From: Escherichia phage chee24
Sequence record: NC_047885.1
Direction: 5' to 3' (one strand)
DNA length: 64,000 bases
Positions 1-11,519 of this stretch are shown here, piece by piece. The position numbers were made by a program, and so were the translations under genes. Position 1 is the stretch's first letter, and every line of letters begins with the position of its first letter. Below the pieces are notes generated by a model. That model saw nothing but the letters and a program-made list of their open reading frames with translations, was not told the DNA's origin and searched no databases.

Positions 1-16
1 ATTTCAACTTTAATTA

Positions 17-751
17 TTACGCAACTTTTAATTTCTCAATATATTGTTGCGGGCTGCAACTATATTCTGCGCGTTCTTCTTCGGTCATACCTTCCCAACA
101 TAATTGCAGGCGGTCGGCTAGGAACTGATAATCATTATCATCCTCAAGAGATTCATCAATAAAGGTTTCACCTATCAATGTCACGCCGATTGATAGAATA
201 TCGTTAACGGCTTGTGCGTCCAGCGTTTTAAATCCGTATGACGCTGCCGCTGATAGCACGCCTTTATGATCATCAATCATTGTAAAATCAGCGTTCGGAT
301 ATAATTGTTTGAATAGCCCAAAATAGTAACTTTTATAAACTGCGTCTTTGCTGTGGTATATCTCGCTAACTTTATCAGCCTCAAAATATTTGTGTAGTGT
401 ATCGCGGGAAAATACACGGATATTACTATCACCACGACCGCGCAAGCCTTGTTTGCGCAAATAATAATAGTCCGACTTGCTCATCAGTCGAGCGGTGCAA
501 ATAATGTTTAATGTATTTGCGTCATTCATGCACTGGCGCATATATGTAACAAGGGGCAATAAAGTATCTTGCATTATTAAATCATGTTTGCAGGCTTCAT
601 TTTTATACTTATTTAAATCTAAATTGCCCTCGCTATCAAAGCAAGGCGCTACACGATGGAAAGAATTAATGATAGTGCCGTCCAGATCCCAAATCATGAC
701 GCGGGAAATATGCGGGAAATTACGGGTAATATTCATTTTAACTTGATTCAT
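17..751 (-). CDS. dmp: 5'-deoxyribonucleotidase (Dmp-like HAD-family phosphatase)
   Basis: 244 aa ORF; N-terminal HAD motif IWDLDGTI; first gene of a T5-type pre-early block; RBS-like GGAGAA upstream. Confidence 0.7.
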   Translation of the reverse strand: MNQVKMNITRNFPHISRVMIWDLDGTIINSFHRVAPCFDSEGNLDLNKYKNEACKHDLIMQDTLLPLVTYMRQCMNDANTLNIICTARLMSKSDYYYLRKQGLRGRGDSNIRVFSRDTLHKYFEADKVSEIYHSKDAVYKSYYFGLFKQLYPNADFTMIDDHKGVLSAAASYGFKTLDAQAVNDILSIGVTLIGETFIDESLEDDNDYQFLADRLQLCWEGMTEEERAEYSCSPQQYIEKLKVA

Positions 752-831
752 TTTGTTACGTTCTCCATTAAAGGGATTAGATTAATTCAGCATTACCCGC
801 TATTTATAAGCGGGTAATAATAAATTAACTA

Positions 832-1224
832 TTAAAGACCATACGCCAACGCATCAGCAATAAAACTAATATCTTCACCAGATACACCGGAACGAATCCC
901 CGCACAAGTATATACCTTTGCGCTGGTCAATTGATCATCGAGGCAAGCGGGGCAAGGTGCGACTACTGCGAAAGCTAAACCAGATTTTACCGCGTCAATA
1001 ATGATGGTTTCTTGTTTCACCGTATCAACATAAACGCCTGCGGCCTTAATGTAACTACTTGCGCGGCCTTGCGTATAGGCAAAGGTAGTAACCTGCAAAG
1101 CGTCATTGAAATCTAATAGGTCATCAATAACGTGCCCCGCCTCGACGTGGTAACGTTCGCCATTAGAATAAACCAGAACAATTGAGGATTGAGCGCGATC
1201 GAATGGAATATTTTGCTTTTTCAT
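832..1224 (-). CDS. hypothetical protein (130 aa; HxE and PCxxC motifs)
   Basis: ORF co-directional with pre-early block; HVEAGH and PCPAC motifs, spacing atypical for a deaminase. Confidence 0.5.
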   Translation of the reverse strand: MKKQNIPFDRAQSSIVLVYSNGERYHVEAGHVIDDLLDFNDALQVTTFAYTQGRASSYIKAAGVYVDTVKQETIIIDAVKSGLAFAVVAPCPACLDDQLTSAKVYTCAGIRSGVSGEDISFIADALAYGL

Positions 1225-1262
1225 ATTTATAAAACTCCAATTAGTTTAATAAGGGGTTTAAT

Positions 1263-1553
1263 TTACTTGATAATAATTTGCATTTGATACGGCGTTAATT
1301 CACCGTTTACGGGTAAATTATTATCGCTTAGCCACTCATAAAAAGCACCATCATCATCAAAAGGGACAATATCGTTATCACGGGAATCGACGGAAATAAT
1401 ACCATCCGTATTAGTTTTGGCGGCTAGGATAGGCCCGAAGCTGTAAACTTTATCAGATTCCATTTCATCCGGTGAAATGAATACTTTTTCGTCCAATGTT
1501 TTGGGTAATGTAACTTTCATTTTTTGACTCCTATAATAGCGGCTATATTTCAA
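1263..1553 (-). CDS. hypothetical protein (96 aa)
   Basis: ORF in pre-early block, tight spacing with neighbours. Confidence 0.45.
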   Translation of the reverse strand: MKYSRYYRSQKMKVTLPKTLDEKVFISPDEMESDKVYSFGPILAAKTNTDGIISVDSRDNDIVPFDDDGAFYEWLSDNNLPVNGELTPYQMQIIIK

Positions 1554-1573
1554 GCCGCTAGGGTATTAATTAT

Positions 1574-3238
1574 TTACGCGAAAAATTTACCGTTTTTAAA
1601 GTCGATCAAAGTGCGCTGACCGTTTGCATAGGTAATAACATGCGTTTGCGTCCAGCTTGACGCGCCAACGTTGTAACCCATGTCCAGACTACCAGACACG
1701 CCAGCGGTGTATACGCCGCCGTAAATGCTGGCGGTATGAGTGTGCCCCGTGTTTAATTTGCCCAATTTCTTAAACTGTTTCGGATTGCCACGGCTCCCGT
1801 TTATGCCATTGTGACCGTGTACGCCGCATTCAATACCTGCAATCTTGAAAGATTGATCAGTGGTCAGAAAAATGGCGTTAAATTCACAACCTGCAACCTT
1901 GCGCAGCGCATAATCTAGCACGTTGAAAGTATCGTCATGATCACCGATTGCCGCGTAAATTGCAGCATTTAGGCGGTGATATAGTTCCGCGTTTGCTGGA
2001 TCGTCTTTAATGTTAGCATTACGATCATCTAACCAGCGGGATAGCGCCAGATCATGATTAGACTCAACAATGATTGTTTGCGAAAAATCGCGCTCCATTG
2101 ACTCCAGCACGCGACCGGTATCGATAAGATCATCCAGAACTTTATCACGTCCGGCGGCATACTGTTTTGCTAGGAATACACCCGAAGCGCGGTTGTGATG
2201 GTTGCGTGATGTAAAGTCGTGAACGTCATGGATAAACTGATATTTTGGTTTAAGAATATCAAGCAAGCTATTTTCGCCAGCCCATGACGCAACGGCGCAA
2301 GCGTCATCCAATTTTTCGGCGTGTACGTCGCCATATTGTAAACCTAAAACGTGCCCCGTTGTTTCATAACATCCGGCGGGAGTGGCGCAAACATTCAGAT
2401 CATAAAACACCCCGCTTTCGTCCATTGTTTCAAGCTGGCGCACAAAAAACTCACCGTCTTCGTCGAACTCAACAATCAGCGCCCCGAAATTATGCAGTGC
2501 TTCCGCTTTCTGTCCTGCTTTCTGCTGAATGTAGTTTTTAAGCGTTGCCGTTCCGGTTGAATACATACGGCGCACAATTTCACCTTTTAAAGCTGGAACG
2601 CTTTCGGCGGTAATTTTTGCCGCTCCAATTGCCAGACCTTCGATATTTAAAGCCGTTGCAGTTTCTGCAAATCCAGAAAGCGGATAATCTGCGGTTGGCA
2701 AAACATTAATTTCAGCCATGAAAGCAAAGCGGCGGTTATTTAAAAACACGTTTTTGCTGCAAATATATTTATCGAACGCGGAATCATATTTGATTCCGTC
2801 GGCGCCCTCGCCATTTTGAAAACCGTTTTTATTATAAATATACTTGCTAACTAGCAAATCAGCACCAATAAATTGGGCGTATTGTTCAAGCGAGGCTAAA
2901 AAGTTTTTATGAGGGAACGTATTATTCTGAATCGATGTAATAATAAAGCGTTTACCCTGCTTTACTTCCCATTGTTCAACCGTGCTAGAAACAATCCCCG
3001 CCGCTTCTGGGCGCTCATCGTTTTTAATGGCTTTTGCTACTTTCGCCGCTTTCGGTTTCGCTGGTTTATTTGCTTCCAGCCAATCGCAAATTGCGGTGGA
3101 GTGTTTTGTTGTATCATAAACCGCTTTAGAAATATCGTCGCACACTTCCAGCTTAGTAGCGCGCAGGCGTTTACCGTAGAAATTGAAATCAGCGGCCATT
3201 TTCAGGATAACGGTTTGTTTTTCTGCGGAAATAACCAT
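1574..3238 (-). CDS. A1: A1-like pre-early protein with calcineurin-like metallophosphoesterase domain
   Basis: 554 aa; phosphoesterase motifs GDVHAE and GHTHT; size and position match T5 A1. Confidence 0.75.
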   Translation of the reverse strand: MVISAEKQTVILKMAADFNFYGKRLRATKLEVCDDISKAVYDTTKHSTAICDWLEANKPAKPKAAKVAKAIKNDERPEAAGIVSSTVEQWEVKQGKRFIITSIQNNTFPHKNFLASLEQYAQFIGADLLVSKYIYNKNGFQNGEGADGIKYDSAFDKYICSKNVFLNNRRFAFMAEINVLPTADYPLSGFAETATALNIEGLAIGAAKITAESVPALKGEIVRRMYSTGTATLKNYIQQKAGQKAEALHNFGALIVEFDEDGEFFVRQLETMDESGVFYDLNVCATPAGCYETTGHVLGLQYGDVHAEKLDDACAVASWAGENSLLDILKPKYQFIHDVHDFTSRNHHNRASGVFLAKQYAAGRDKVLDDLIDTGRVLESMERDFSQTIIVESNHDLALSRWLDDRNANIKDDPANAELYHRLNAAIYAAIGDHDDTFNVLDYALRKVAGCEFNAIFLTTDQSFKIAGIECGVHGHNGINGSRGNPKQFKKLGKLNTGHTHTASIYGGVYTAGVSGSLDMGYNVGASSWTQTHVITYANGQRTLIDFKNGKFFA

Positions 3239-3336
3239 AATAATAAAACTCCATTAAAGGGATTAAAAAACGTTTGTTATTGGCAAATATTGCCAAATAT
3301 AACGCCGCTCATTTACAGCGTTATAATTTGCAACAT

Positions 3337-3582
3337 TTAACTAATTGGCACTAGGCTAGAACTAACACCACAAACAACGGCAGCAATAAAACAAAGTAAG
3401 CCCAAACGCTTTGCTAATTTAGATTTACGTTTAAAATAATACGAATCTAAATCATTTTGAAAATAAGCGAACAATAGGGAGGCCGCTACAATAAATAAGC
3501 CTAAAATTAGCGATTCAGTGGGAAAGAAAACCATTTTAATAACTCCAGTCAAAGGGAAATTATAGTGGGGAATATTCCCCAC
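3337..3582 (-). CDS. small hydrophobic membrane protein (81 aa)
   Basis: ORF with two hydrophobic segments; in pre-early operon. Confidence 0.45.
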   Translation of the reverse strand: MGNIPHYNFPLTGVIKMVFFPTESLILGLFIVAASLLFAYFQNDLDSYYFKRKSKLAKRLGLLCFIAAVVCGVSSSLVPIS

Positions 3583-3591
3583 TAATTAAAT

Positions 3592-3999
3592 TTATTCGCC
3601 TGCGGCTTGTTTTACTTCATCGGCAACGCCTAACAGTTGCGCCACGGCGTCCAGCGTTTCTAATTTTGCGCTTTCCAGCGATGCCAGATCGTCGGCGTCT
3701 TTGATAATGCCGGAATCAATAGCATGTTTAGCGATAACGCGCACATAGTGAGCCTTACGAATTGAACTGCCGCCGCCAACTTTGCGCGGCTTATCGCTTT
3801 TCTGGTACGCTTTTGCGCTGGTCAATTTTGAGCGAACAGACACGGGAGAAGCCGCACCAACTGTTTTTGCGATCTCTTTCAGGCCGTCGCTGTTGGCGAA
3901 CTCCAAGCCGTTTTCATTGATCAACTGTTGATACATGGTAACAGCCTGCTGGGTGTTTTCTTCATTCCAAGAGAATTTTGCGGTTTTAGCGTTAGTCAT
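3592..3999 (-). CDS. A2: A2-like pre-early protein (135 aa)
   Basis: 135 aa ORF immediately downstream of A1 on same strand; size and position match T5 A2; no catalytic motif seen. Confidence 0.55.
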   Translation of the reverse strand: MTNAKTAKFSWNEENTQQAVTMYQQLINENGLEFANSDGLKEIAKTVGAASPVSVRSKLTSAKAYQKSDKPRKVGGGSSIRKAHYVRVIAKHAIDSGIIKDADDLASLESAKLETLDAVAQLLGVADEVKQAAGE

Positions 4000-4097
4000 G
4001 ATTATAACTCCTATTGATTTAATTTAAGGGATAAGATTAACATAATGTTAATCGTTATATACCCCGAACTACTGGGGTATATAAAGTTAACACTAAA

Positions 4098-4349
4098 TTA
4101 TAAAACAGCTTCCCATTTTTCGTTGCGCTGGGCAACCTTTACAACGTCGCCGGATTTAACCCGAACGCTATAAATAGTTTTCCCGTTGTTACTCCGTTCC
4201 GTTTCAGCGTATACCGCATCAATTACATCAAACGGCATAAGCGCCGCGCCTTTAATGCGTTCGGCCTTTCCGGTTAATTCGTCCGTTTTAGTAACGAAAG
4301 GAATAAAAACGGATTGACCAATTTTTGGCGCATTAGTAACGTTTTTCAT
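4098..4349 (-). CDS. hypothetical protein (83 aa)
   Basis: ORF in pre-early block. Confidence 0.45.
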   Translation of the reverse strand: MKNVTNAPKIGQSVFIPFVTKTDELTGKAERIKGAALMPFDVIDAVYAETERSNNGKTIYSVRVKSGDVVKVAQRNEKWEAVL

Positions 4350-4577
4350 GGTATAAACTCCAGTTTATTCAGTGGATTGTTCCGCATTACCTGCTAGAAA
4401 GTAGCAGGTAATAAGCAACAATCCGCTCGCCATTATAATCAATTTAAAGAACTCCACTCAGGCCGCTATATCCCAGTTAGGGGGCGGGACACATTATGGT
4501 AAGTGCCGACCGTCAAATTTTATCAAGTTATCGCTCTCATCGAACTGGGTACATCTTAAAGCCTATCGGCTAGGGTG

Positions 4578-4781
4578 TCAAACAGTTTTTTGCAGTTTTT
4601 TATGATTTTCTTTCAGGTCAATCATAATATTGCGCCAGATCATTTCCAAACCTTGCTGGCGGCCTTTCTTGTACTGCATGAATCTGAATTTTACGGATTG
4701 TTGAGCTATTGTCAACAGCTTTCTAGTATTGCCATCCAATTTTTTGGCGGGTTTACCAGTGATTAATAAAGTTTGTTTCAT
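4578..4781 (-). CDS. hypothetical basic protein (67 aa)
   Basis: ORF with GGAGGG RBS; start ATG overlaps stop of upstream small ORF (ATGA). Confidence 0.45.
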   Translation of the reverse strand: MKQTLLITGKPAKKLDGNTRKLLTIAQQSVKFRFMQYKKGRQQGLEMIWRNIMIDLKENHKKLQKTV

Positions 4782-4936
4782 TCCACGCCCTCCAGTGCAT
4801 ACAGACCTTTACCATCATTACAGAATACAACCGCTTCTGAATGGTTGGCGTGATATTCGTTTGCCGCTTTTACCCATTGCTCGATCTTTTCGATCGTGTC
4901 ATGGGTTGCTGGATGATCGTTATATATTGTTTGCAT
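4778..4936 (-). CDS. hypothetical small protein (52 aa)
   Basis: Hand-translated ORF (below track cutoff) with AAGGAA RBS; translationally coupled to 4578-4781. Confidence 0.35.
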   Translation of the reverse strand: MQTIYNDHPATHDTIEKIEQWVKAANEYHANHSEAVVFCNDGKGLYALEGVE

Positions 4937-5372
4937 ATCTGCGATTCCTTATAATGAATAAGTTTACCGCCGATAGACTTTAAGATATACCCAATTTTTA
5001 AAGAGCGCGGCGGTAAACTTCCCGCCGTGTAGTTCGTCATTGCCGCCCTACGTGATAAATAATAGGGTATTCCCGAAAATGGCGCAACCTTATTTTTGTA
5101 AAGAAACGTAAAGAAAGCAACACGTTCGGCGCTCACCTAAGTTTAAAGGAAACGGGCGCGCGAATACCATAAAACCAAGCAGATAGGCAAGTAATTTTTT
5201 CATTTATATTTGCCTTGCCCTACTTGACAAAATCTAAAAAGCTCGTGGTAGCGATAAACGGCTTATCCCCTTATGATGGGATGGCTAAAAACTTCATCGC
5301 GTTCTAGGACGTTTTAGGCGCATTCTAGCCTTGTTGATAACTTATCCCCAAAAGCAAAAATGAAATTTTCCT

Positions 5373-5410
5373 AGTTATCCACTTGACTTTTATTTTCCAG
5401 TGGATAACTA
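5373..5410. repeat. inverted repeat containing two facing DnaA-box-like sequences
   Basis: AGTTATCCAC ... GTGGATAACT, perfect 10-bp arms. Confidence 0.6.
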
Positions 5411-5720
5411 CTTATTTTATAAAATTAATTAATTGACTTTTATTTGTTAGTGTGTATCGGAAAGATAGCAGACTAATAATTGTTAGGATTATAATCATGC
5501 TGGTGGATTGTAACAGCCTGAACTATTAGCAGACTATTAATCTCGGAAAATCTCATTAGCCAACTAACTATTTCATATTATATAATATACATATAAATTA
5601 ATGAGAAATAATAATTATAAGAAATCGTAACCGATAGAAATAATAACTACAAAAATAATCACCGTTATAATAATAACGATAAGAAACTATCGGCCTAAGT
5701 GAGAACCACTATCATTTAAG

Positions 5721-5813
5721 TTATTCACAAAGTTATCCACAGCACAAAATGATTTGACACGATAGGCGGCGATATAAGGACTTATCCACAGACTTATCCA
5801 CATGTTATCCTAC
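5721..5813. promoter_or_regulatory. cluster of five DnaA-box-like 9-mers
   Basis: TTATTCACA, TTATCCACA (x3), TTATCCTAC within about 90 bp. Confidence 0.6.
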
Positions 5814-5828
5814 TGTATATTTATACAG
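5813..5828. repeat. 16-bp perfect palindrome CTGTATATTTATACAG (copy 1)
   Basis: Exact palindrome adjacent to DnaA-box cluster; identical copy at 9368-9383. Confidence 0.7.
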
Positions 5829-6094
5829 GGTAAAAAGGTAGTGTTAACAACTGCAATCAATTTTAAGCGGCCTAAAACGCTTTCTAACGAGCAAAACGCT
5901 ATAGGGTAATATTAAAGTAAAGCCTCAACGCGTCGCCCTGGTGACTTCGCCGTGTTTTGCTCTTTACTATACCGCTGCGCGTTTAACATAAAAATAAGCG
6001 TTAGGCAAGGAAAATAAAAAGGTAAAATAATATTTGCCCCTAGAAAGAAAATACCTTTATCATTCACTCACCGATTAACGAGGGAGGCCAACAA

Positions 6095-7087
6095 ATGCGG
6101 CTATATAAACCAGATAACGCAACCGTCTTAAAAGGTGCGTTGCGTAACCTGCTGGATGGTAGCAGAACAACCAGCATTAAACATTTTGTTTTCAATATTG
6201 AAACACTTCATCGTAATTTTCTTGATGATTACGATGCTTATAATATGAATAGTTTTCTACCGTTATATAATCAAGGGGCAACGCTTGTTTTATATAATCA
6301 GGAATCTCACTTGCTTACTAGTCGAGGGCCAGATACTGATTTTATTATAGTGAAAGGCAGTACAGTAAAAGCCTATGATGCGGGGGCGGGCTTAGAAGTT
6401 TTCACGATAGAAAATTATGAGCCTTATGATAAGGATCTTTATGACGTAGAAAATTTTCTCGATTCATTTTGGCGTTATTTATCAATTGGGTGGAATCGAT
6501 CAGATTATCACGGGTATCGTTTTGCGGCTATAATGGCTTTTGATGATAACGGTAATTTTTTGCTACCGTCGGAATTATACCCGTATGTATATAATGATTT
6601 AATAGAGGAGGCTGGTTTTACTTTCTGGAAAGATGAAGATCAGCCTATTGACAACACGGAAAAACATGCTGTAAATTCTAACACTCAAAGCGTTAACACT
6701 CAAATTACTGAAAACAAAGGAAAAAATACCATGACCAAGATCGCTAATATCGTTGCCGCCAATAAGTCTGCTGTTGTAAATGCTGCAAAACTGGAAGCGG
6801 GTAAAATTGCATTAACTCAAATCACGAAAGTAGCGGCTAAAAAAGCGCCGTTTATGATTAAAGGTTATATTGATACGCCGATTGGTCGGGTAGTTATTGC
6901 CAACCTGCTGAGCGTAGCGGTTGACCAGTACGCCCCAGCTAACCAGAAAGCGAAAGCGGTAGCAGGTGCAGCTATGGAAGCGGCTATGTTAGAAATGGTG
7001 CAAAGTTTTAACATCGCTGAAATGATCGATGAAATGGTGAAAGGTATTGATATTTCTACTTTTACCACTAGCACCGAAAGCGAGTAA
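6095..7087 (+). CDS. hypothetical protein (330 aa, Ala/Lys-rich C-terminal region)
   Basis: ORF with GAGGGAGG RBS; first gene of rightward cassette bounded by inverted DnaA-box/palindrome repeats. Confidence 0.6.
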   Translation: MRLYKPDNATVLKGALRNLLDGSRTTSIKHFVFNIETLHRNFLDDYDAYNMNSFLPLYNQGATLVLYNQESHLLTSRGPDTDFIIVKGSTVKAYDAGAGLEVFTIENYEPYDKDLYDVENFLDSFWRYLSIGWNRSDYHGYRFAAIMAFDDNGNFLLPSELYPYVYNDLIEEAGFTFWKDEDQPIDNTEKHAVNSNTQSVNTQITENKGKNTMTKIANIVAANKSAVVNAAKLEAGKIALTQITKVAAKKAPFMIKGYIDTPIGRVVIANLLSVAVDQYAPANQKAKAVAGAAMEAAMLEMVQSFNIAEMIDEMVKGIDISTFTTSTESE

Positions 7088-7151
7088 TAATATTAAGCGG
7101 GGATTGTTACCCCGCTTTACTATTCCCTTGTTAATTAATAGGAGGCTAATT

Positions 7152-7646
7152 ATGCCAGAAGAAAAATATGGCTTCTCACTGGGAGAAGTGAGTACGGCTA
7201 AACATGATATGATTGTTTTAGTCGATTGCCATACCGGTTATTGCGGGGAAGGGAATACTGAGGAATATTTTGTTCCTGCTGGTACGGATCTCGACGCTTT
7301 CGCCCATGAAATGGCTGTTGATAATGCTTCTCGTTTTGGTAGCGATGGTTACGAAGACGAAGAAACGGGCGATTGGTATGAGAATGATAATGTATATGCA
7401 AGCCTTTATCATTATCAATTAAGTAAATCCGGCACATATGTAAACGGCGGTGATCCTATTAATTCCGTCATGAAATTAATTATTAAATATGGCGGCGTCG
7501 AGATAGTCGATAACAAAGCGGTAATATATGCAAACCGATTAAAACAGCTTGTTTATATCCCTGATAGTACCCGATGGGAGGAATATGCTGTTTTGCATGA
7601 TGAATTAAAACGATGTTTCAATATTGAAACCTTACAAGTAGTTTAA
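7152..7646 (+). CDS. hypothetical protein (164 aa)
   Basis: In-frame ATG with GGAGG RBS inside track ORF 7047-7646; followed by hairpin plus T-run terminator. Confidence 0.6.
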   Translation: MPEEKYGFSLGEVSTAKHDMIVLVDCHTGYCGEGNTEEYFVPAGTDLDAFAHEMAVDNASRFGSDGYEDEETGDWYENDNVYASLYHYQLSKSGTYVNGGDPINSVMKLIIKYGGVEIVDNKAVIYANRLKQLVYIPDSTRWEEYAVLHDELKRCFNIETLQVV

Positions 7647-7661
7647 TGTAAAGTTTTGTAA

Positions 7662-7690
7662 AGGCCGCCTCTTATGGTGGCCTTTTTTGT
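7662..7690 (+). terminator. rho-independent terminator
   Basis: Hairpin AGGCCGCC..GGTGGCCT followed by TTTTTT. Confidence 0.65.
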
Positions 7691-7754
7691 TATAATGCCT
7701 TTACACCGTTTAAGGACGGTTGAAAATTTTCCCAAAAAATTTTGGAGGCTTATA

Positions 7755-7985
7755 ATGGTTGCTTATTCTTCTTCTGACGCTCTTTTCACTGGAAAAGGCT
7801 GGGTATCAAATCGCTGGATCATTCAAGAAATGGTGCAAGAATATGGCATTGCTAAAACTTACACTACCATTCAGGCGCTTTATGATAATGATCAAATTGA
7901 TCAGCAAACGGCGGGCTTTTTGCTGGATACCCTAAAAGCGGAACACTGCACCAAAAAACAAGCTGCAAAAATTGTTTTAATGTAA
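7755..7985 (+). CDS. hypothetical protein (76 aa)
   Basis: In-frame ATG with GGAGG RBS inside track ORF 7674-7985. Confidence 0.5.
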   Translation: MVAYSSSDALFTGKGWVSNRWIIQEMVQEYGIAKTYTTIQALYDNDQIDQQTAGFLLDTLKAEHCTKKQAAKIVLM

Positions 7986-8181
7986 TTAATAAAGGGGGAT
8001 ACTATATCCCCCACTAACTAGAGAGAATAAAAATGGTTATTTTTCGAGCTATTCTAGCAGGTATCTTGGGCGCTATTTTATCACTTTTTGCAATAGCTTT
8101 CGGCGTTCACGCGGTTATTATTGGCGCGGGGATTGCCGTTTTTTCTTATCTGCTGGGCTGCATGAATAAAGGAGAATAAAA

Positions 8182-8394
8182 ATGATCCGCAACGTTTCCC
8201 TTGCCCGCTCCAAAGGCTTTAAGCTGGTGGACGTTAACACGTTTGAGCGGGAGGATTGTAAAATCGAATATGTAGCACGCAACAAAAATGCCTTTCGTGT
8301 TACAGAAAAGAAATTTGACAAGCGCGGCAACGTGATCGCTGAAACGGTTAAACACTTTGCCACCTTTTACGCTGCGTTTCGTGGGGTGTTATAA
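8182..8394 (+). CDS. hypothetical protein (70 aa)
   Basis: ORF with AAGGAG RBS. Confidence 0.5.
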   Translation: MIRNVSLARSKGFKLVDVNTFEREDCKIEYVARNKNAFRVTEKKFDKRGNVIAETVKHFATFYAAFRGVL

Positions 8395-8395
8395 A

Positions 8396-8740
8396 ATGGT
8401 TATTTATGAGGGCAATCGTTTTGTTGCTAATTGCCGTCCGGCATTACTAGCAAACTATTTAAATCAGGTTTCACCTGAATATAAAGGCGTCATTAATATT
8501 TACGAGGGTAAGGCGCACTATAAAATTAATGCGGTCGTTGCCCGTGAATTAGCATTTCAATTTTTGACCTTTGCATCTTGTGACGTTCAGGTTATGGGTG
8601 AAGCATTAATTGCAGAAAATGAAGATGATTTTATTAATATTTTCCGCAAGATATGCACCGAGCGCCTGATCATGAAAGGCGCATATATTCAATCCACTGC
8701 GGATAGCATTGAAACAGCGTTTCGAAAGGTGGCGCAATGA
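8396..8740 (+). CDS. hypothetical protein (114 aa)
   Basis: In-frame ATG overlapping upstream stop (coupled); inside track ORF 8357-8740. Confidence 0.5.
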   Translation: MVIYEGNRFVANCRPALLANYLNQVSPEYKGVINIYEGKAHYKINAVVARELAFQFLTFASCDVQVMGEALIAENEDDFINIFRKICTERLIMKGAYIQSTADSIETAFRKVAQ

Positions 8741-8913
8741 AAAAGTTTTTAATAGCTGGTATGTTTCCTTTGTTGCCTTATGTAATTTGCTGGGCTTTAT
8801 ACGCTCATGGTGCTAGTGTTCCCGGTGTGGCCTCGTTTGGTGTATCGGCTGGTTTTCTAACCGGACTATTGGCAAGCGTATATCTGCGCAAATAATTAAT
8901 AACGGGAGTTATT

Positions 8914-9108
8914 ATGAGCAATAAAATTGTTGTAACCAAAATCAGTACAATGGTTGACGTTTTTTATGTGCCCGATACGCCGGAAAACCGGCAAGCGGTC
9001 GAGCGTGGCGAGTATGATAAAGTGATTTATGATCACGATGGTTACTATCAACATTTGGTGGATTCCTACGGGGAGGGGGAAAAAATCACGCATCGACTAC
9101 CAGACTAG
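8914..9108 (+). CDS. hypothetical protein (64 aa)
   Basis: ORF with GGGAG RBS; last gene of rightward cassette. Confidence 0.45.
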   Translation: MSNKIVVTKISTMVDVFYVPDTPENRQAVERGEYDKVIYDHDGYYQHLVDSYGEGEKITHRLPD

Positions 9109-9367
9109 TAATCACGGGGGCGCAACTACCAGGGAGTGCCCCCAATTCTCAAATGAGAATGATTCTCATTTGACCGCGCCCGCGATGGTTAGCCTGCTAA
9201 TGATTAGGGTGTTACGTGTCGCCTTGTGTGATCGTTAGCAGGCTAACTAATTTTTAAGCCTCCTCCAATTTTGCCCTTGTTTTAGTATCCCCATCAAAAT
9301 TAAACGCGTTAGAATGCGATTCAGGACGTTTTAGGCCTATATTAGAATTATTCACTACATAGGAGTA

Positions 9368-9383
9368 CTGTATATTTATACAG
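9368..9383. repeat. 16-bp perfect palindrome CTGTATATTTATACAG (copy 2)
   Basis: Identical to 5813-5828; followed by reverse-orientation DnaA boxes. Confidence 0.7.
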
Positions 9384-9405
9384 TAGAATAACCTGGGGAT
9401 AAGTC

Positions 9406-9475
9406 TGTGGATAACGCCTCAAAATGGCTAGGATTCTGTCAAGTCAAATCGTGCTGTTGATAAGTCTGTGGATAA
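9406..9475. promoter_or_regulatory. two DnaA-box-like sequences in reverse orientation (TGTGGATAA)
   Basis: Each within the motif GATAAGTCTGTGGATAAC, mirroring 5781-5803. Confidence 0.6.
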
Positions 9476-9500
9476 CTTAAATAACAGTGTTTCTCACTTC

Positions 9501-9680
9501 CATTTTTAAATGCGAATCATTATCATTTGCATTTCACTGTCTAACTGATAATCATTTCACTTTTTAAATGAGAATCATTTCACTTTTTGAATAGTTCTCA
9601 TTCCGCTTTTTAAATGAGAATAATTATCATTCGCATTTCACTTTTTAAATGAGATTGATTCTCATTATCATTCGCATTTA
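9501..9680. repeat. AT-rich repeat array (five copies of CACTTTTTAAATGAGAAT-like unit with palindromic AATGAGAATCATT cores)
   Basis: Visible repeated units at roughly 20-40 bp intervals. Confidence 0.6.
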
Positions 9681-9709
9681 GGCGAGCAGGGCAATTGCCC
9701 TGCGCTTTT

Positions 9710-9932
9710 GTGCAAATCCGACATTGCTCCACGGGTGTTACGTGCGGGCGTGTATGTGCGAATCCGACAATTTTTGGTAGTGTGCGAATCCGACCCGAAA
9801 AATTTTTATAGTGTGCAAATCCGACAATGAATTTTCCCAAAAACTCCAGCAATCTCGAACTGCGTTCGAATCCTGTGGAATTAGCTAGAATATGTGCAAA
9901 TCCGACATGTGTTGAGATGTGCGAATCCGACA
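9710..9932. repeat. iteron array: six direct copies of GTGC(A/G)AATCCGAC(A/C)
   Basis: Copies at 9710, 9756, 9782, 9813, 9894, 9919; irregular spacing. Confidence 0.75.
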
Positions 9933-10261
9933 AGATTTTTGTGACTTCGATTGGAGGGTGTGTGATTGTATGGGTTTGAGGAGAAGGTGAGAGAGCGAGA
10001 GAAATTTTGGTACTAGAAGGGTGTGGGCGCAGGATTGGTGCGGAGCACCTGATTTGCGGGGATTTTGGGGAAGATGTAAGATAATTTGGGAAGATTTGAG
10101 ATAGGTGCAGAAAAAGTGAAATTTTATTAGCAAAATGGGGCAAAATAGCTTGACAAGTGAAAATTCCTGTGGCTCTAAAAACTCAGGCAATCATGGGCCT
10201 TCGGCCCGAAATAATGCTGCTATTTTCAGGGGAGTAAAAGTTCCTAAAAACTTAGGCGTTT

Positions 10262-10310
10262 GTGCAAATCCGACCATAAATTTCTAGAAATGCAGTGTGC
10301 AAATCCGACA
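10262..10310. repeat. two further copies of the GTGCAAATCCGAC iteron
   Basis: Copies at 10262 and 10297, each followed by a TTCTAGAAA or TTCTGGAAA palindrome-like motif. Confidence 0.7.
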
Positions 10311-10339
10311 GTAATTTCTGGAAATGTGTTTTCAAAAAA

Positions 10340-10440
10340 TGTCTTCTAGAAATAACCGCCCTCCCTATAACCGCCCTGTATTAACCGCCTAGTATATGTT
10401 CCTAGAAACTTAGGAGAACCGCCCACTAGAAGTGTGATAT
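10340..10440. repeat. AACCGCC short direct repeats (four copies) interleaved with TTCTAGAA-type palindromes
   Basis: ATAACCGCC, ATAACCGCC, TTAACCGCC, GAACCGCC seen within 100 bp. Confidence 0.55.
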
Positions 10441-10787
10441 TTCGTGAGAACTCTGGAGTTTCTAGGAAAGTGTTATGCCATCCTAGCAGATGAGCGACAA
10501 CAGGTGTATCATCTTGAATGTAAATTATGTGGACAAAAGTTTTACCTTTTATTTAAATAAAAGATCCCCCAATCTCGTAAGTCTGCTGCTCTAGGCGTTC
10601 AAGATCTGTATGCTAATCCCGTGAAAACTGCTGCAGAATACATCCTAACGCCAGGGGCGCTGGTGTACTCTTCGAGTTGGGATAGCAATAATCTTGTTGC
10701 CTAGAGCTAAAAACAGAAGTTGTTTTTAATCTATGAGATTATTATAACATGTGCCTTAATGAGTTGTCAAGAAGATTTTGTTAACGT

Positions 10788-11519
10788 TTATTCCTTCCGC
10801 TTGTATTTGAGAACGATACCCTTCGAGACCATGAAGAGGAAAGTTGCAAGATAGGAATGTGGGGATTTTAGCGCATCATAATCTACAGTTCCGAAAGAAC
10901 CTTCGCCAAATACCTCAGAGTTCTCAAATGTAGGAAGTAAACGTGCCAATCCTACAGCTCCTATAATCTTAAAGAATTGATCCCAGTCATTTAACATTGC
11001 TTTATGTGCAGACTGTAAGATTAATGGCATCTCTAGGTTCTTTTCGAGACATAGATGAACCTGCGCAATCGTAGAAGCAATCCCTAGCAACACTTCATCT
11101 TTTGTATAAGGGAATCCAGTATCTTTTCTTTGGAGTCTAGGAAGATGATCATATTCACAACGTTTAGGTGGGATGAACTTTTCCTCGGGATATAATTCTA
11201 ATGCAACTCTAACGTTTCCTTCTTTAAATACTGGAAGTTCCTGATCTGCAAAGACATGATATGAATCTGCCTTGAACCCTACAATCTTATCACCAACAGA
11301 ATTGATGATCTTTCTCATTGCAATATAAGAAGGGGATAGAGTTACGAATTTTTCTTCTTTATTATATTTAACAATTCCAGCTTCTGTATAAGCTGCGGGA
11401 TGAAACTCAGAACAGAATGCTACTGCATGAGCTTCATCAGGAGTTAGTTCAGAAACACATTTGCCGTCAGCATTCTTAGCCAGCTTAATAATAGTCTTTA
11501 AATTCTCACTAATACTCAT
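10788..11519 (-). CDS. hypothetical early protein (243 aa)
   Basis: ORF; first in a run of tightly packed leftward ORFs. Confidence 0.6.
   Translation of the reverse strand: MSISENLKTIIKLAKNADGKCVSELTPDEAHAVAFCSEFHPAAYTEAGIVKYNKEEKFVTLSPSYIAMRKIINSVGDKIVGFKADSYHVFADQELPVFKEGNVRVALELYPEEKFIPPKRCEYDHLPRLQRKDTGFPYTKDEVLLGIASTIAQVHLCLEKNLEMPLILQSAHKAMLNDWDQFFKIIGAVGLARLLPTFENSEVFGEGSFGTVDYDALKSPHSYLATFLFMVSKGIVLKYKRKE

What the first reader, a model, noticed from the sequence alone, without database searches (positions are those of the whole stretch)
6095..9108. Rightward cassette of unknown small proteins inside the pre-early block
At least six rightward ORFs with good RBSs, plus two short hydrophobic peptides below the ORF-track cutoff (8033-8179, 8737-8892), lie on the strand opposite dmp/A1/A2 and end with a clean terminator at 7662-7690. 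None shows a recognisable catalytic motif. Pre-early products are the first phage proteins made in a host, so this is a plausible site for host-takeover or anti-defence functions.
Basis: inference. Interest (0 to 1): 0.55.

Follow-up and report, generated by a model that had tools for sequence, protein, structure and literature searches.

The report
Known T5-type pre-early rightward operon
This is the already described rightward "pre-early" operon of a T5-like phage: eight small, real, expressed genes, three of whose T5 counterparts are known host-toxic takeover factors. It is an ordinary, known feature, with two genes that have never been studied.

Summary
The window is the left end of T5-like phage pork29 (Tequintavirus chee24). 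Region 6095-9108 lies inside the left terminal repeat and is the counterpart of T5 genes T5.011-T5.017.

All eight rightward ORFs are real genes. They have Shine-Dalgarno sites, fill 92% of the span, and show dN/dS of 0-0.3 against up to nine relatives. The two short hydrophobic peptides are included.

The terminator at 7660-7690 is real, but it lies inside the cassette, not at its end.

Published T5 work shows that:
- 011, 013 and 015 are toxic to E. coli.
- 015 is an Ung-dependent nickase that cuts abasic sites.
- The block from hegG to 017 can be deleted without losing viability.
- In phage Bas33 the syntenic genes are transcribed.

So "unknown proteins" is out of date, while "host takeover" is supported. 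An anti-defence role is untested.

What T5 lacks:
- A 164-aa acidic gene (7152-7646) follows 011 in phages of three genera across two Demerecviridae subfamilies, plus an unclassified Klebsiella T5-like phage. Its model is confident (pLDDT 88.5) but has no structural match in the PDB.
- A 52-aa two-hydrophobic-segment peptide (8737-8895) sits in a hypervariable slot.

Side result: RefSeq and PHROGs put the nickase name on the 70-aa ORF, whereas UniProt and the T5.015 locus tag point to the 114-aa ORF.

The parts
5697..5828 (.). Left arm of the 132-nt inverted repeat that brackets the cassette. It carries TTATCCACA (DnaA-box) motifs and corresponds to 'IRC-spacer-IRD' of the T5 literature.
   Evidence: pair I1, 78% complementary to 9368-9499. 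(cross-match to T5 9411-9542). Described for T5 in bioRxiv 10.1101/866236.
6011..6094 (+). Promoter and 5' leader of the operon: A/T-rich upstream tract, -35 TTGCCC (6034-6039), 18-nt spacer, -10 TATCAT (6058-6063), SD gagggagg.
   Evidence: Nearly identical to the promoter annotated at T5 6411-6489. The T5 promoter upstream of 011 is reported as experimentally characterised.
6095..7087 (+). Orthologue of T5.011 (330 aa, DUF7566). It has a variable N-terminal alpha/beta domain (about 1-180), a low-confidence linker (186-228), and a C-terminal helical domain of about 110 aa that is highly conserved across the family.
7152..7646 (+). 164-aa acidic protein (pI 4.4; here called X164, phrog_6741). 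It has no counterpart in T5.
7660..7690 (+). Intrinsic-terminator-like hairpin plus U-run, internal to the cassette. It corresponds to the terminator annotated in T5 at 7534-7559.
   Evidence: The stem keeps pairing through G-C to G-U changes, one on each arm, between the window and T5.
7688..7696 (+). Candidate extended -10 promoter (TGnTATAAT) directly after the terminator U-run. It could re-start transcription for 012-017. This is an inference.
   Evidence: TG and TATAAT are invariant in 8 phages while the middle base varies. The whole 7640-7760 intergenic stretch has 88% mean column identity, above what synonymous sites show.
7755..7985 (+). Orthologue of T5.012 (76 aa). Function unknown; not toxic in T5 screens.
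   Evidence: 98.7% identity. dN/dS 0.03-0.17. The longer upstream start at 7674 is not kept in frame in relatives.
8033..8179 (+). Orthologue of T5.013 (48 aa, two hydrophobic segments). It lacks 11 residues of the T5 loop.
   Evidence: 71% identity with a gap. Hydropathy. dN/dS 0.08-0.18. T5.013 caused lysis-like cell damage when expressed. Not annotated in the GenBank record.
8182..8394 (+). Orthologue of T5.014 (70 aa, basic, pI 10). It is the most conserved gene of the cassette. RefSeq and PHROGs label it as the Ung-dependent nickase, probably wrongly.
   Evidence: 100% identical to T5.014, with 19 synonymous and 0 non-synonymous differences. phrog_4227. It is called 'ORF015' in another T5 record.
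8396..8740 (+). Orthologue of locus tag T5.015 (114 aa). By locus tag and UniProt name, this is the published Ung-dependent nickase that cuts abasic sites.
   Evidence: 94.7% identity. UniRef name 'DNA-(apurinic or apyrimidinic site) endonuclease'. PMC8201957. The toxicity of 015, but not 014, was repeated with NC_005859.1 numbering.
8737..8895 (+). 52-aa peptide with two hydrophobic segments (phrog_35622) in the hypervariable '016 slot'. It is unrelated to T5.016, and its start overlaps the 015 stop (ATGA).
   Evidence: No T5 hit. Found in 41 phage records. pN/pS 0-0.05. Other phages carry unrelated ORFs in this slot. Not annotated in the GenBank record.
8914..9108 (+). Orthologue of T5.017 (64 aa, acidic). 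Function unknown.
   Evidence: 87.5% identity. dN/dS 0.05-0.17. Not annotated in the GenBank record.
9186..9255 (+). Long hairpin followed by UUUUU, after the last gene. It is the likely end of the transcription unit and lies at the start of the injection-stop region.
   Evidence: dG -37.9 kcal/mol, z -7.4. Inverted repeat I9.
9368..9499 (.). Right arm of the bracketing inverted repeat with DnaA boxes ('IRD'-spacer-IRC'').

Best explanation
Region 6095-9108 is the rightward transcription unit of the first-step-transfer (pre-early) DNA of a T5-like phage.

Shown: it is the syntenic counterpart of T5 genes T5.011-T5.017. It lies inside the left terminal repeat, between the two DnaA-box inverted repeats and just left of the injection-stop region.

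[quoted passage not shown] It transcribes 011 and the 164-aa gene up to an internal terminator at 7660-7690. Read-through, a conserved extended -10 element just behind the terminator, or both then serve 012-017.

The products are small accessory host-takeover effectors, not essential replication or injection functions:
- 011 disturbs the nucleoid.
- 013 is a membrane-damaging peptide with two hydrophobic segments.
- 015 binds host Ung and nicks the abasic sites that Ung creates in uracil-containing host DNA.
- 012, 014, 017, the 164-aa protein and the 52-aa peptide have no known activity.

Gene content differs between relatives (the 164-aa gene is missing in T5, and the 016 slot is hypervariable), as expected for an accessory cassette.
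For: - Identity and position: the window is 100% identical to pork29 (MF431732) at the same coordinates, and the left terminal repeat spans 1-9968.
- Orthology to T5.011-017: 71-100% identity, in the same order.
- Bracketing inverted repeat with DnaA boxes, as described for T5.
- The promoter leader is almost identical to the annotated T5 promoter. That promoter is cited as experimentally characterised.
- Real genes: Shine-Dalgarno sites, dN/dS 0-0.3, matching GC skew.
- Function of the orthologues: toxicity of 011 and 015; toxicity of 011, 013 and 015 with cell phenotypes; the Ung-dependent nicking mechanism; a viable T5 mutant lacking hegG-017.
- Expression: Bas33 RNA-seq shows the syntenic genes at roughly 3540 (011), 2363 (012) and about 430-600 for four distal genes of the sizes of 013, 014, a 53-aa 016-slot ORF and an 86-aa ORF. 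Genes were matched by order and length, and units are taken to be TPM. Ten pre-early proteins were detected.
- Internal terminator and conserved TGnTATAAT element.
Against: - No transcript or protein data exist for this phage itself.
- Bas33 and T5 both lack the 164-aa gene, so its expression is only inferred from its position inside the first transcription unit and from purifying selection.
- The second promoter is a conservation-based inference and has no -35 element.
- The window's 013 lacks 11 loop residues of T5.013, so its toxicity may differ.
- Which ORF (70 aa or 114 aa) is the published nickase is contradictory between databases.
- Five of the eight products have no assigned activity, so 'host takeover' is an extrapolation for them.
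Confidence: 0.85

Rival explanations
1. Anti-defence cassette. One or more of the uncharacterised products (012, 014, 017, the 164-aa protein or the 52-aa peptide) neutralise host nucleases or restriction-modification systems. That would explain the long-known but unassigned pre-early protection of T5-like phages against restriction and RecBCD.
For: T5-like phages resist Type I/II/III restriction when the recognition sites lie outside the terminal repeat. First-step-transfer genes also protect against RecBCD, and no gene has been assigned to either effect (PMC10644984). The 164-aa and 017 proteins are acidic (pI 4.4 and 4.95). The authors of the T5 deletion study say these genes may matter in hosts with other defence systems.
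Against: No match to any Pfam, NCBIfam or PADLOC family other than DUF7566. There is no structural match for the 164-aa protein. A T5 mutant lacking hegG-017 still grows. T5 lacks the 164-aa and 52-aa genes yet is restriction-insensitive. Epseptimaviruses, reported as not sharing the insensitivity, carry 011, the 164-aa gene, 012, 014 and 015, and Stitch also carries 017.
Confidence: 0.12
2. 011 and the 164-aa gene form a functional pair in which the 164-aa protein modulates or tempers the toxic 011 protein. T5 would then be an exceptional lineage that lost the partner.
For: The 164-aa gene directly follows the 011 homologue in Tequintavirus, Epseptimavirus (Stitch, STWB21) and Pectobacterium My1; in Klebsiella Roth37 it is close by, with one other ORF between them. 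In the window the two genes share one promoter-to-terminator unit. Wild-type T5 011 could not be cloned.
Against: 011 occurs in 506 phage records and the 164-aa gene in only 344. T5 and Bas33 carry 011 alone and are fully viable. Phage EC148 combines a T5-type 011 with the 164-aa gene, so the two do not co-vary. No interaction was tested.
Confidence: 0.1
3. The small ORFs, especially the two hydrophobic peptides and 017, are chance reading frames in A+T-rich spacer DNA between the two DnaA-box repeats. On this view only the DNA spacing matters.
For: Three of them (013, the 52-aa ORF and 017) are not annotated in the GenBank record of this phage. The distance between the two repeats varies widely among T5-like phages.
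Against: Synonymous changes far outnumber non-synonymous ones in every ORF. Start codons and SD sites are intact. PHROG families exist for all eight. The syntenic genes are transcribed in Bas33. T5.013 has a phenotype when expressed.
Confidence: 0.02

Closest known systems
Bacteriophage T5 pre-early genes T5.011-T5.017 (right-hand operon of the first-step-transfer DNA, NC_005859 6495-9157)
   Same: Same position in the terminal repeat, same orientation and same gene order. The promoter leader, the internal terminator and the bracketing DnaA-box inverted repeats are also shared. Six of the eight proteins are 71-100% identical.
   Different: The window has an extra 164-aa gene between 011 and the terminator. 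It has an unrelated 52-aa peptide in place of T5.016. Its 013 is shorter by 11 residues, and the hegG homing endonuclease is absent upstream.
T5.015, the Ung-dependent nickase that cuts abasic sites (Mahata et al. 2021, PMC8201957)
   Same: ORF 8396-8740 is 94.7% identical to locus tag T5.015, and UniProt names the family 'DNA-(apurinic or apyrimidinic site) endonuclease'.
   Different: RefSeq and PHROGs attach that function to the neighbouring 70-aa ORF (8182-8394). Neither protein has a recognisable nuclease domain or a solved structure. The activity was not tested for this phage.
Early host-takeover gene sets of other virulent coliphages (for example T7 class I genes such as 0.4, used as the toxic control in PMC8201957)
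   Same: They are small, mostly non-essential proteins made first from the leading end of the genome by host RNA polymerase. Several are toxic when expressed alone (general phage knowledge).
   Different: There is no sequence or fold relationship. The T5-type cassette is expressed during a programmed pause in DNA entry and is duplicated in both terminal repeats.

Membership tests
T5-type first-step-transfer right-hand operon | Lies inside the long terminal repeat, left of the injection-stop repeats, on the strand opposite dmp-A1-A2 | tested here: met
   The left terminal repeat spans 1-9968. dmp, A1 and A2 are on the minus strand and the cassette is on the plus strand. The injection-stop repeat arrays lie at 9495-10311.
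T5-type first-step-transfer right-hand operon | Orthologues of T5.011-T5.017 in the same order | tested here: met
   011, 012, 013, 014, 015 and 017 are 71-100% identical and collinear. T5.016 is replaced and one gene is added.
T5-type first-step-transfer right-hand operon | Bracketed by the ~131-bp inverted repeats carrying paired DnaA boxes | tested here: met
   Arms at 5697-5828 and 9368-9499 are 78% complementary and carry TTATCCACA motifs. The T5 equivalents are described.
T5-type first-step-transfer right-hand operon | Pre-early transcription from the promoter upstream of 011 | not testable with these tools
   The promoter sequence is conserved with the annotated T5 promoter. Expression evidence comes only from the relatives T5 and Bas33.
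DUF7566 (PF24450) | Full-length match above the Pfam gathering score | tested here: met
   ORF 6095-7087: E 1.7e-112, 376.8 bits against a cut-off of 27; residues 2-330 align to profile positions 5-336.
T5.015 Ung-dependent nickase at abasic sites | Sequence orthology to the protein characterised by Mahata et al. | tested here: inconclusive
   The 114-aa ORF is 94.7% identical to locus tag T5.015, and the 70-aa ORF is 100% identical to T5.014. Databases disagree on which one is the published protein. An attempt to settle this through accession EFG4537521.1 failed.
T5.015 Ung-dependent nickase at abasic sites | Binds host Ung and cleaves abasic sites; toxicity depends on ung | not testable with these tools
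   These are biochemical and genetic properties reported for T5 only.
Known anti-defence or defence protein families | Significant match to a curated family model | tested here: not met
   Pfam, NCBIfam and PADLOC gave no significant hit for any of the eight proteins apart from DUF7566. No dedicated anti-defence library was available.
Small membrane-disrupting phage peptides (as T5.013) | Two hydrophobic membrane-spanning segments in a peptide of about 50 aa | tested here: met
   013 has a maximum 19-residue hydropathy of 2.54, and the 52-aa peptide 1.84. Each sequence shows two hydrophobic stretches. Membrane damage is shown only for T5.013.

The most novel reading that the evidence does not exclude
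The 164-aa acidic protein (7152-7646) is a new type of pre-early effector. It is an old partner of 011 in several Demerecviridae lineages and has been lost from the model phages T5 and Bas33, so it has never been examined. Its fold is confidently predicted but has no counterpart among solved structures. It could be an inhibitor of a host defence or repair protein, or a regulator of 011 toxicity.
Probability: 0.15. Interest if true: 0.5.

Novelty: already known. Interest (0 to 1): 0.2.

Why it matters
For a genome scan, this removes a false lead. The cassette is the known pre-early right operon of T5-like phages, and its T5 counterparts have already been screened by expression and deletion.

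Three practical points remain:
- T5 is not representative of its family here. It has lost a conserved 164-aa gene that 344 phage records in the collection searched still carry, so T5-based screens have missed it.
- The public record of this phage leaves three real genes unannotated (013, the 52-aa peptide and 017).
- RefSeq and PHROGs on one side, and UniProt on the other, attach the only known biochemical function in the cassette to different ORFs. Annotation pipelines are now spreading that error.

Tried and rejected
- **'DNA N-6-adenine methyltransferase' labels** on 011 or 013 homologues in some records. Rejected: there is no methyltransferase family hit.
- **'Putative virion structural protein' and 'endonuclease' labels** in phage HMD-P5 for 011 and 012. 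No support was found.
- **Longer 103-aa start for 012 at 7674.** Rejected because indels break the frame in relatives.
- **Promoter-like hit at 7729-7756**. Rejected: its -10 overlaps the 012 start codon and is not conserved.
PGAP numbering in other assemblies is inconsistent about whether 013 is called.
- **Rfam.** Nothing meaningful in 4900-10800.
- **AlphaFold database fold search.** The library was unavailable.
- **Structure of 011.** The model has only moderate confidence (pLDDT 66), and fold search gave only generic helical hairpins.
Full report
**What the window is.** A megablast of 5200-10800 hits five T5-like phages isolated from meat (pork29, saus47N, saus111K, poul124, pork27) at 100% identity and at the same coordinates. 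The window is therefore the first 64 kb of a Tequintavirus chee24 genome. Its left terminal repeat is annotated as 1-9968. It holds dmp, A1 and A2 on the minus strand. The finding thus lies in the first-step-transfer, or pre-early, DNA of a T5-like phage.

**Checking the observation.**
- Each starts with ATG behind a purine-rich Shine-Dalgarno-like run. Two junctions are tightly coupled: TAAAATG and an overlapping ATGA.
- The ORFs fill 92% of the span.
- GC skew is positive only between about 6000 and 9250 and negative on both sides, where genes run leftward.
- I compared each ORF with its counterpart in up to nine relatives: slur09, T5, Lindwurm, HMD-P5, EASG3, Stitch, STWB21, Roth37 and My1. 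Synonymous changes greatly outnumber non-synonymous ones everywhere, with dN/dS from 0.0 to 0.3. The 70-aa ORF differs from T5 by 19 synonymous and no non-synonymous changes.
- The 52-aa peptide shows 5-12 synonymous against 0-2 non-synonymous differences.
- The ORFs, including both short hydrophobic peptides, are therefore real genes. Three of them (8033-8179, 8737-8895, 8914-9108) are not annotated in the GenBank record.

**The terminator.** The hairpin and U-run at 7660-7690 is the only canonical intrinsic-terminator-like site on the plus strand inside the cassette. It aligns with the terminator annotated in T5 at 7534-7559. After the last gene there is a much stronger hairpin with a U5 tail at 9186-9255.

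The intergenic stretch 7640-7760 has 88% mean column identity across eight phages, including an Epseptimavirus whose coding regions are saturated at synonymous sites. Within it:
- The terminator stem keeps pairing through G-C to G-U changes, one on each arm, between the window and T5.
- A TGnTATAAT element at 7688-7696 is invariant except for its middle base.

I read that element as a candidate extended -10 promoter that restarts transcription for the six distal genes. This is an inference from conservation only.

**What the genes are.** Comparison with T5 (NC_005859) gives the following mapping:

| Window ORF | T5 counterpart | Identity |
|---|---|---|
| 6095-7087 | T5.011 | 77% |
| 7152-7646 | none | - |
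| 7755-7985 | T5.012 | 98.7% |
| 8033-8179 | T5.013 | 71%, with an 11-residue deletion |
| 8182-8394 | T5.014 | 100% |
| 8396-8740 | T5.015 | 94.7% |
| 8737-8895 | none | - |
| 8914-9108 | T5.017 | 87.5% |

The leader 6011-6094 is almost identical to the promoter annotated upstream of T5.011, which the T5 literature treats as experimentally characterised. The cassette is bracketed by a 132-nt inverted repeat (5697-5828 and 9368-9499) with DnaA-box motifs. This is the IRC-spacer-IRD / IRD'-spacer-IRC' pair already described for T5-like phages, and the distance between the arms is known to vary.

**What is known about function.**
- Mahata et al. cloned 13 T5 genes of unknown function, including T5.011-T5.017. 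They found 008, 011 and 015 toxic. They showed that 015 binds Ung and nicks the abasic sites that Ung makes in uracil-containing DNA.
- A 2026 preprint using NC_005859.1 numbering found 011, 013 and 015 toxic among this cassette's genes. Gene 011 gave uneven nucleoids, 013 gave lysis-like cell damage, and 015 gave elongated cells with condensed nucleoids.
- The same preprint reports a viable T5 mutant that lacks hegG to 017 along with most of the left arm. That mutant forms smaller plaques.
- In Tequintavirus Bas33, RNA-seq shows the syntenic genes expressed, and ten pre-early proteins were detected by proteomics.
- In the supplementary table of that paper, the genes I matched by order and length read about 3540 for 011 and 2363 for 012. 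Four distal genes, of the sizes of 013, 014, a 53-aa 016-slot ORF and an 86-aa ORF, read 430-600. I take the units to be TPM. The pattern fits partial termination along the operon. The matching to Bas33 is my inference.

**Searches run here.**
- Pfam recognises only DUF7566 in 011. NCBIfam and PADLOC find nothing.
- No protein has a relative in the PDB by sequence.
- In 011, the N-terminal half is variable and the C-terminal ~110 residues are highly conserved, even in Pectobacterium phage My1.

**What T5 does not have.**
- *The 164-aa gene.* It is found in 344 phage records. It directly follows the 011 homologue in other Tequintaviruses, in Epseptimaviruses and in My1; in the Klebsiella phage Roth37 one other ORF lies between them. 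It is absent from T5 and, by gene spacing, from Bas33. It is therefore an old member of the cassette that the model phages have lost.
- The protein is acidic (pI 4.4) and has invariant glycine-rich loops and one invariant cysteine.
- In the viral structure library it matches only uncharacterised proteins; the four named among the top five are from T5-like phages.
- A profile search of 1.84 billion representative proteins finds only 31 clusters, none longer than 261 aa and so none fused to a large extra domain. Its function stays open.
- *The 52-aa peptide.* It occurs in 41 records. It sits in a slot where other phages carry unrelated small ORFs or nothing.

**A database conflict.** RefSeq and PHROGs (phrog_4227) give the name 'endonuclease nicking abasic sites generated by host uracil glycosylase Ung' to the 70-aa protein, whose locus tag is T5.014. 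UniProt names the 114-aa protein, locus tag T5.015, 'DNA-(apurinic or apyrimidinic site) endonuclease'. The 70-aa protein is called 'ORF015' in another T5 record, which may explain the mix-up.

Evidence for the 114-aa ORF:
- Mahata's list of cloned genes fits NC_005859 numbering.
- The 2026 preprint, which uses that numbering explicitly, repeats the toxicity of 015 but not of 014.

Evidence for the 70-aa ORF:
- It is basic (pI 10) and has 8 lysines among its 70 residues.
- The non-toxic mutant in Mahata et al. carries three lysine substitutions.

I favour the 114-aa ORF at roughly 3 to 1, but I could not settle the question.

**Verdict.** The host-takeover interpretation is supported by published work on orthologues, and the anti-defence idea remains untested. 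The feature is already known. The only parts with open biology are the 164-aa gene, the 52-aa peptide and the unassigned 012, 014 and 017.

Noticed in passing
window 8182-8394 versus 8396-8740: RefSeq and PHROGs (phrog_4227) attach the Ung-dependent nickase name to the 70-aa ORF. UniProt and the T5.015 locus tag point to the 114-aa ORF. The 70-aa protein is 'ORF015' in another T5 record, which is a likely source of an off-by-one mislabel that is now spreading into new phage annotations.
   Followed up: partly
window 5697-5828 and 9368-9499: A 132-nt inverted repeat (78% complementary) with TTATCCACA DnaA-box motifs and the palindrome TACTGTATATTTATACAG brackets the whole cassette. It is already described for T5 as IRC-spacer-IRD / IRD'-spacer-IRC'.
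   Followed up: yes
window 9495-9660 and 9709-10311: Injection-stop region: six copies of a 27-nt repeat (CATTTCACTTTTTAAATGAGAATCATT) and eight copies of TGTGCAAATCCGACA. The record's CDS P29_0014 (9610-10143, minus strand, 177 aa) lies across these repeats. T5 annotates no gene there, so it is probably spurious.
   Followed up: partly
window 8033-8179, 8737-8895, 8914-9108 (and 3337-3582): Three conserved genes of the cassette are missing from the GenBank annotation of this phage. An unannotated minus-strand ORF with hydrophobic stretches at 3337-3582 lies between A1 and A2, where T5 has T5.005, a two-transmembrane membrane protein.
   Followed up: partly
window 6838-6843 (L013, pork27 record 6095-7086): The sibling isolate pork27 has one A fewer in an A6 run inside 011. 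This splits 011 into 253-aa and 77-aa ORFs and cuts off the conserved C-terminal domain. It is either a natural knockout of a dispensable toxic gene or a homopolymer sequencing error.
   Followed up: partly
window 5437-5698: The HNH homing endonuclease hegG (T5.010) found in T5 between the two upstream repeat regions is absent here. About 900 nt upstream of 011 (5204-6094) has no convincing gene.
   Followed up: partly
window 7640-7760: The intergenic region between the 164-aa gene and 012 is more conserved than the neighbouring coding DNA (88% mean column identity across two genera). Downstream of the terminator and the TGnTATAAT element there is a small hairpin, CACCGT...ACGGT here and CACC...GGTG in slur09. 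There is also a CCAAAA/TTTTGG palindrome next to the 012 Shine-Dalgarno site.
   Followed up: partly
L005, L008, L011, L012, L004 (between the 014 and 015 homologues): Several relatives have an insert of about 120 nt between 014 and 015, where the window and T5 have directly abutting genes. In STWB21 it is annotated as a 40-aa ORF. In Bas33 the corresponding 126-nt ORF shows almost no reads.
   Followed up: no
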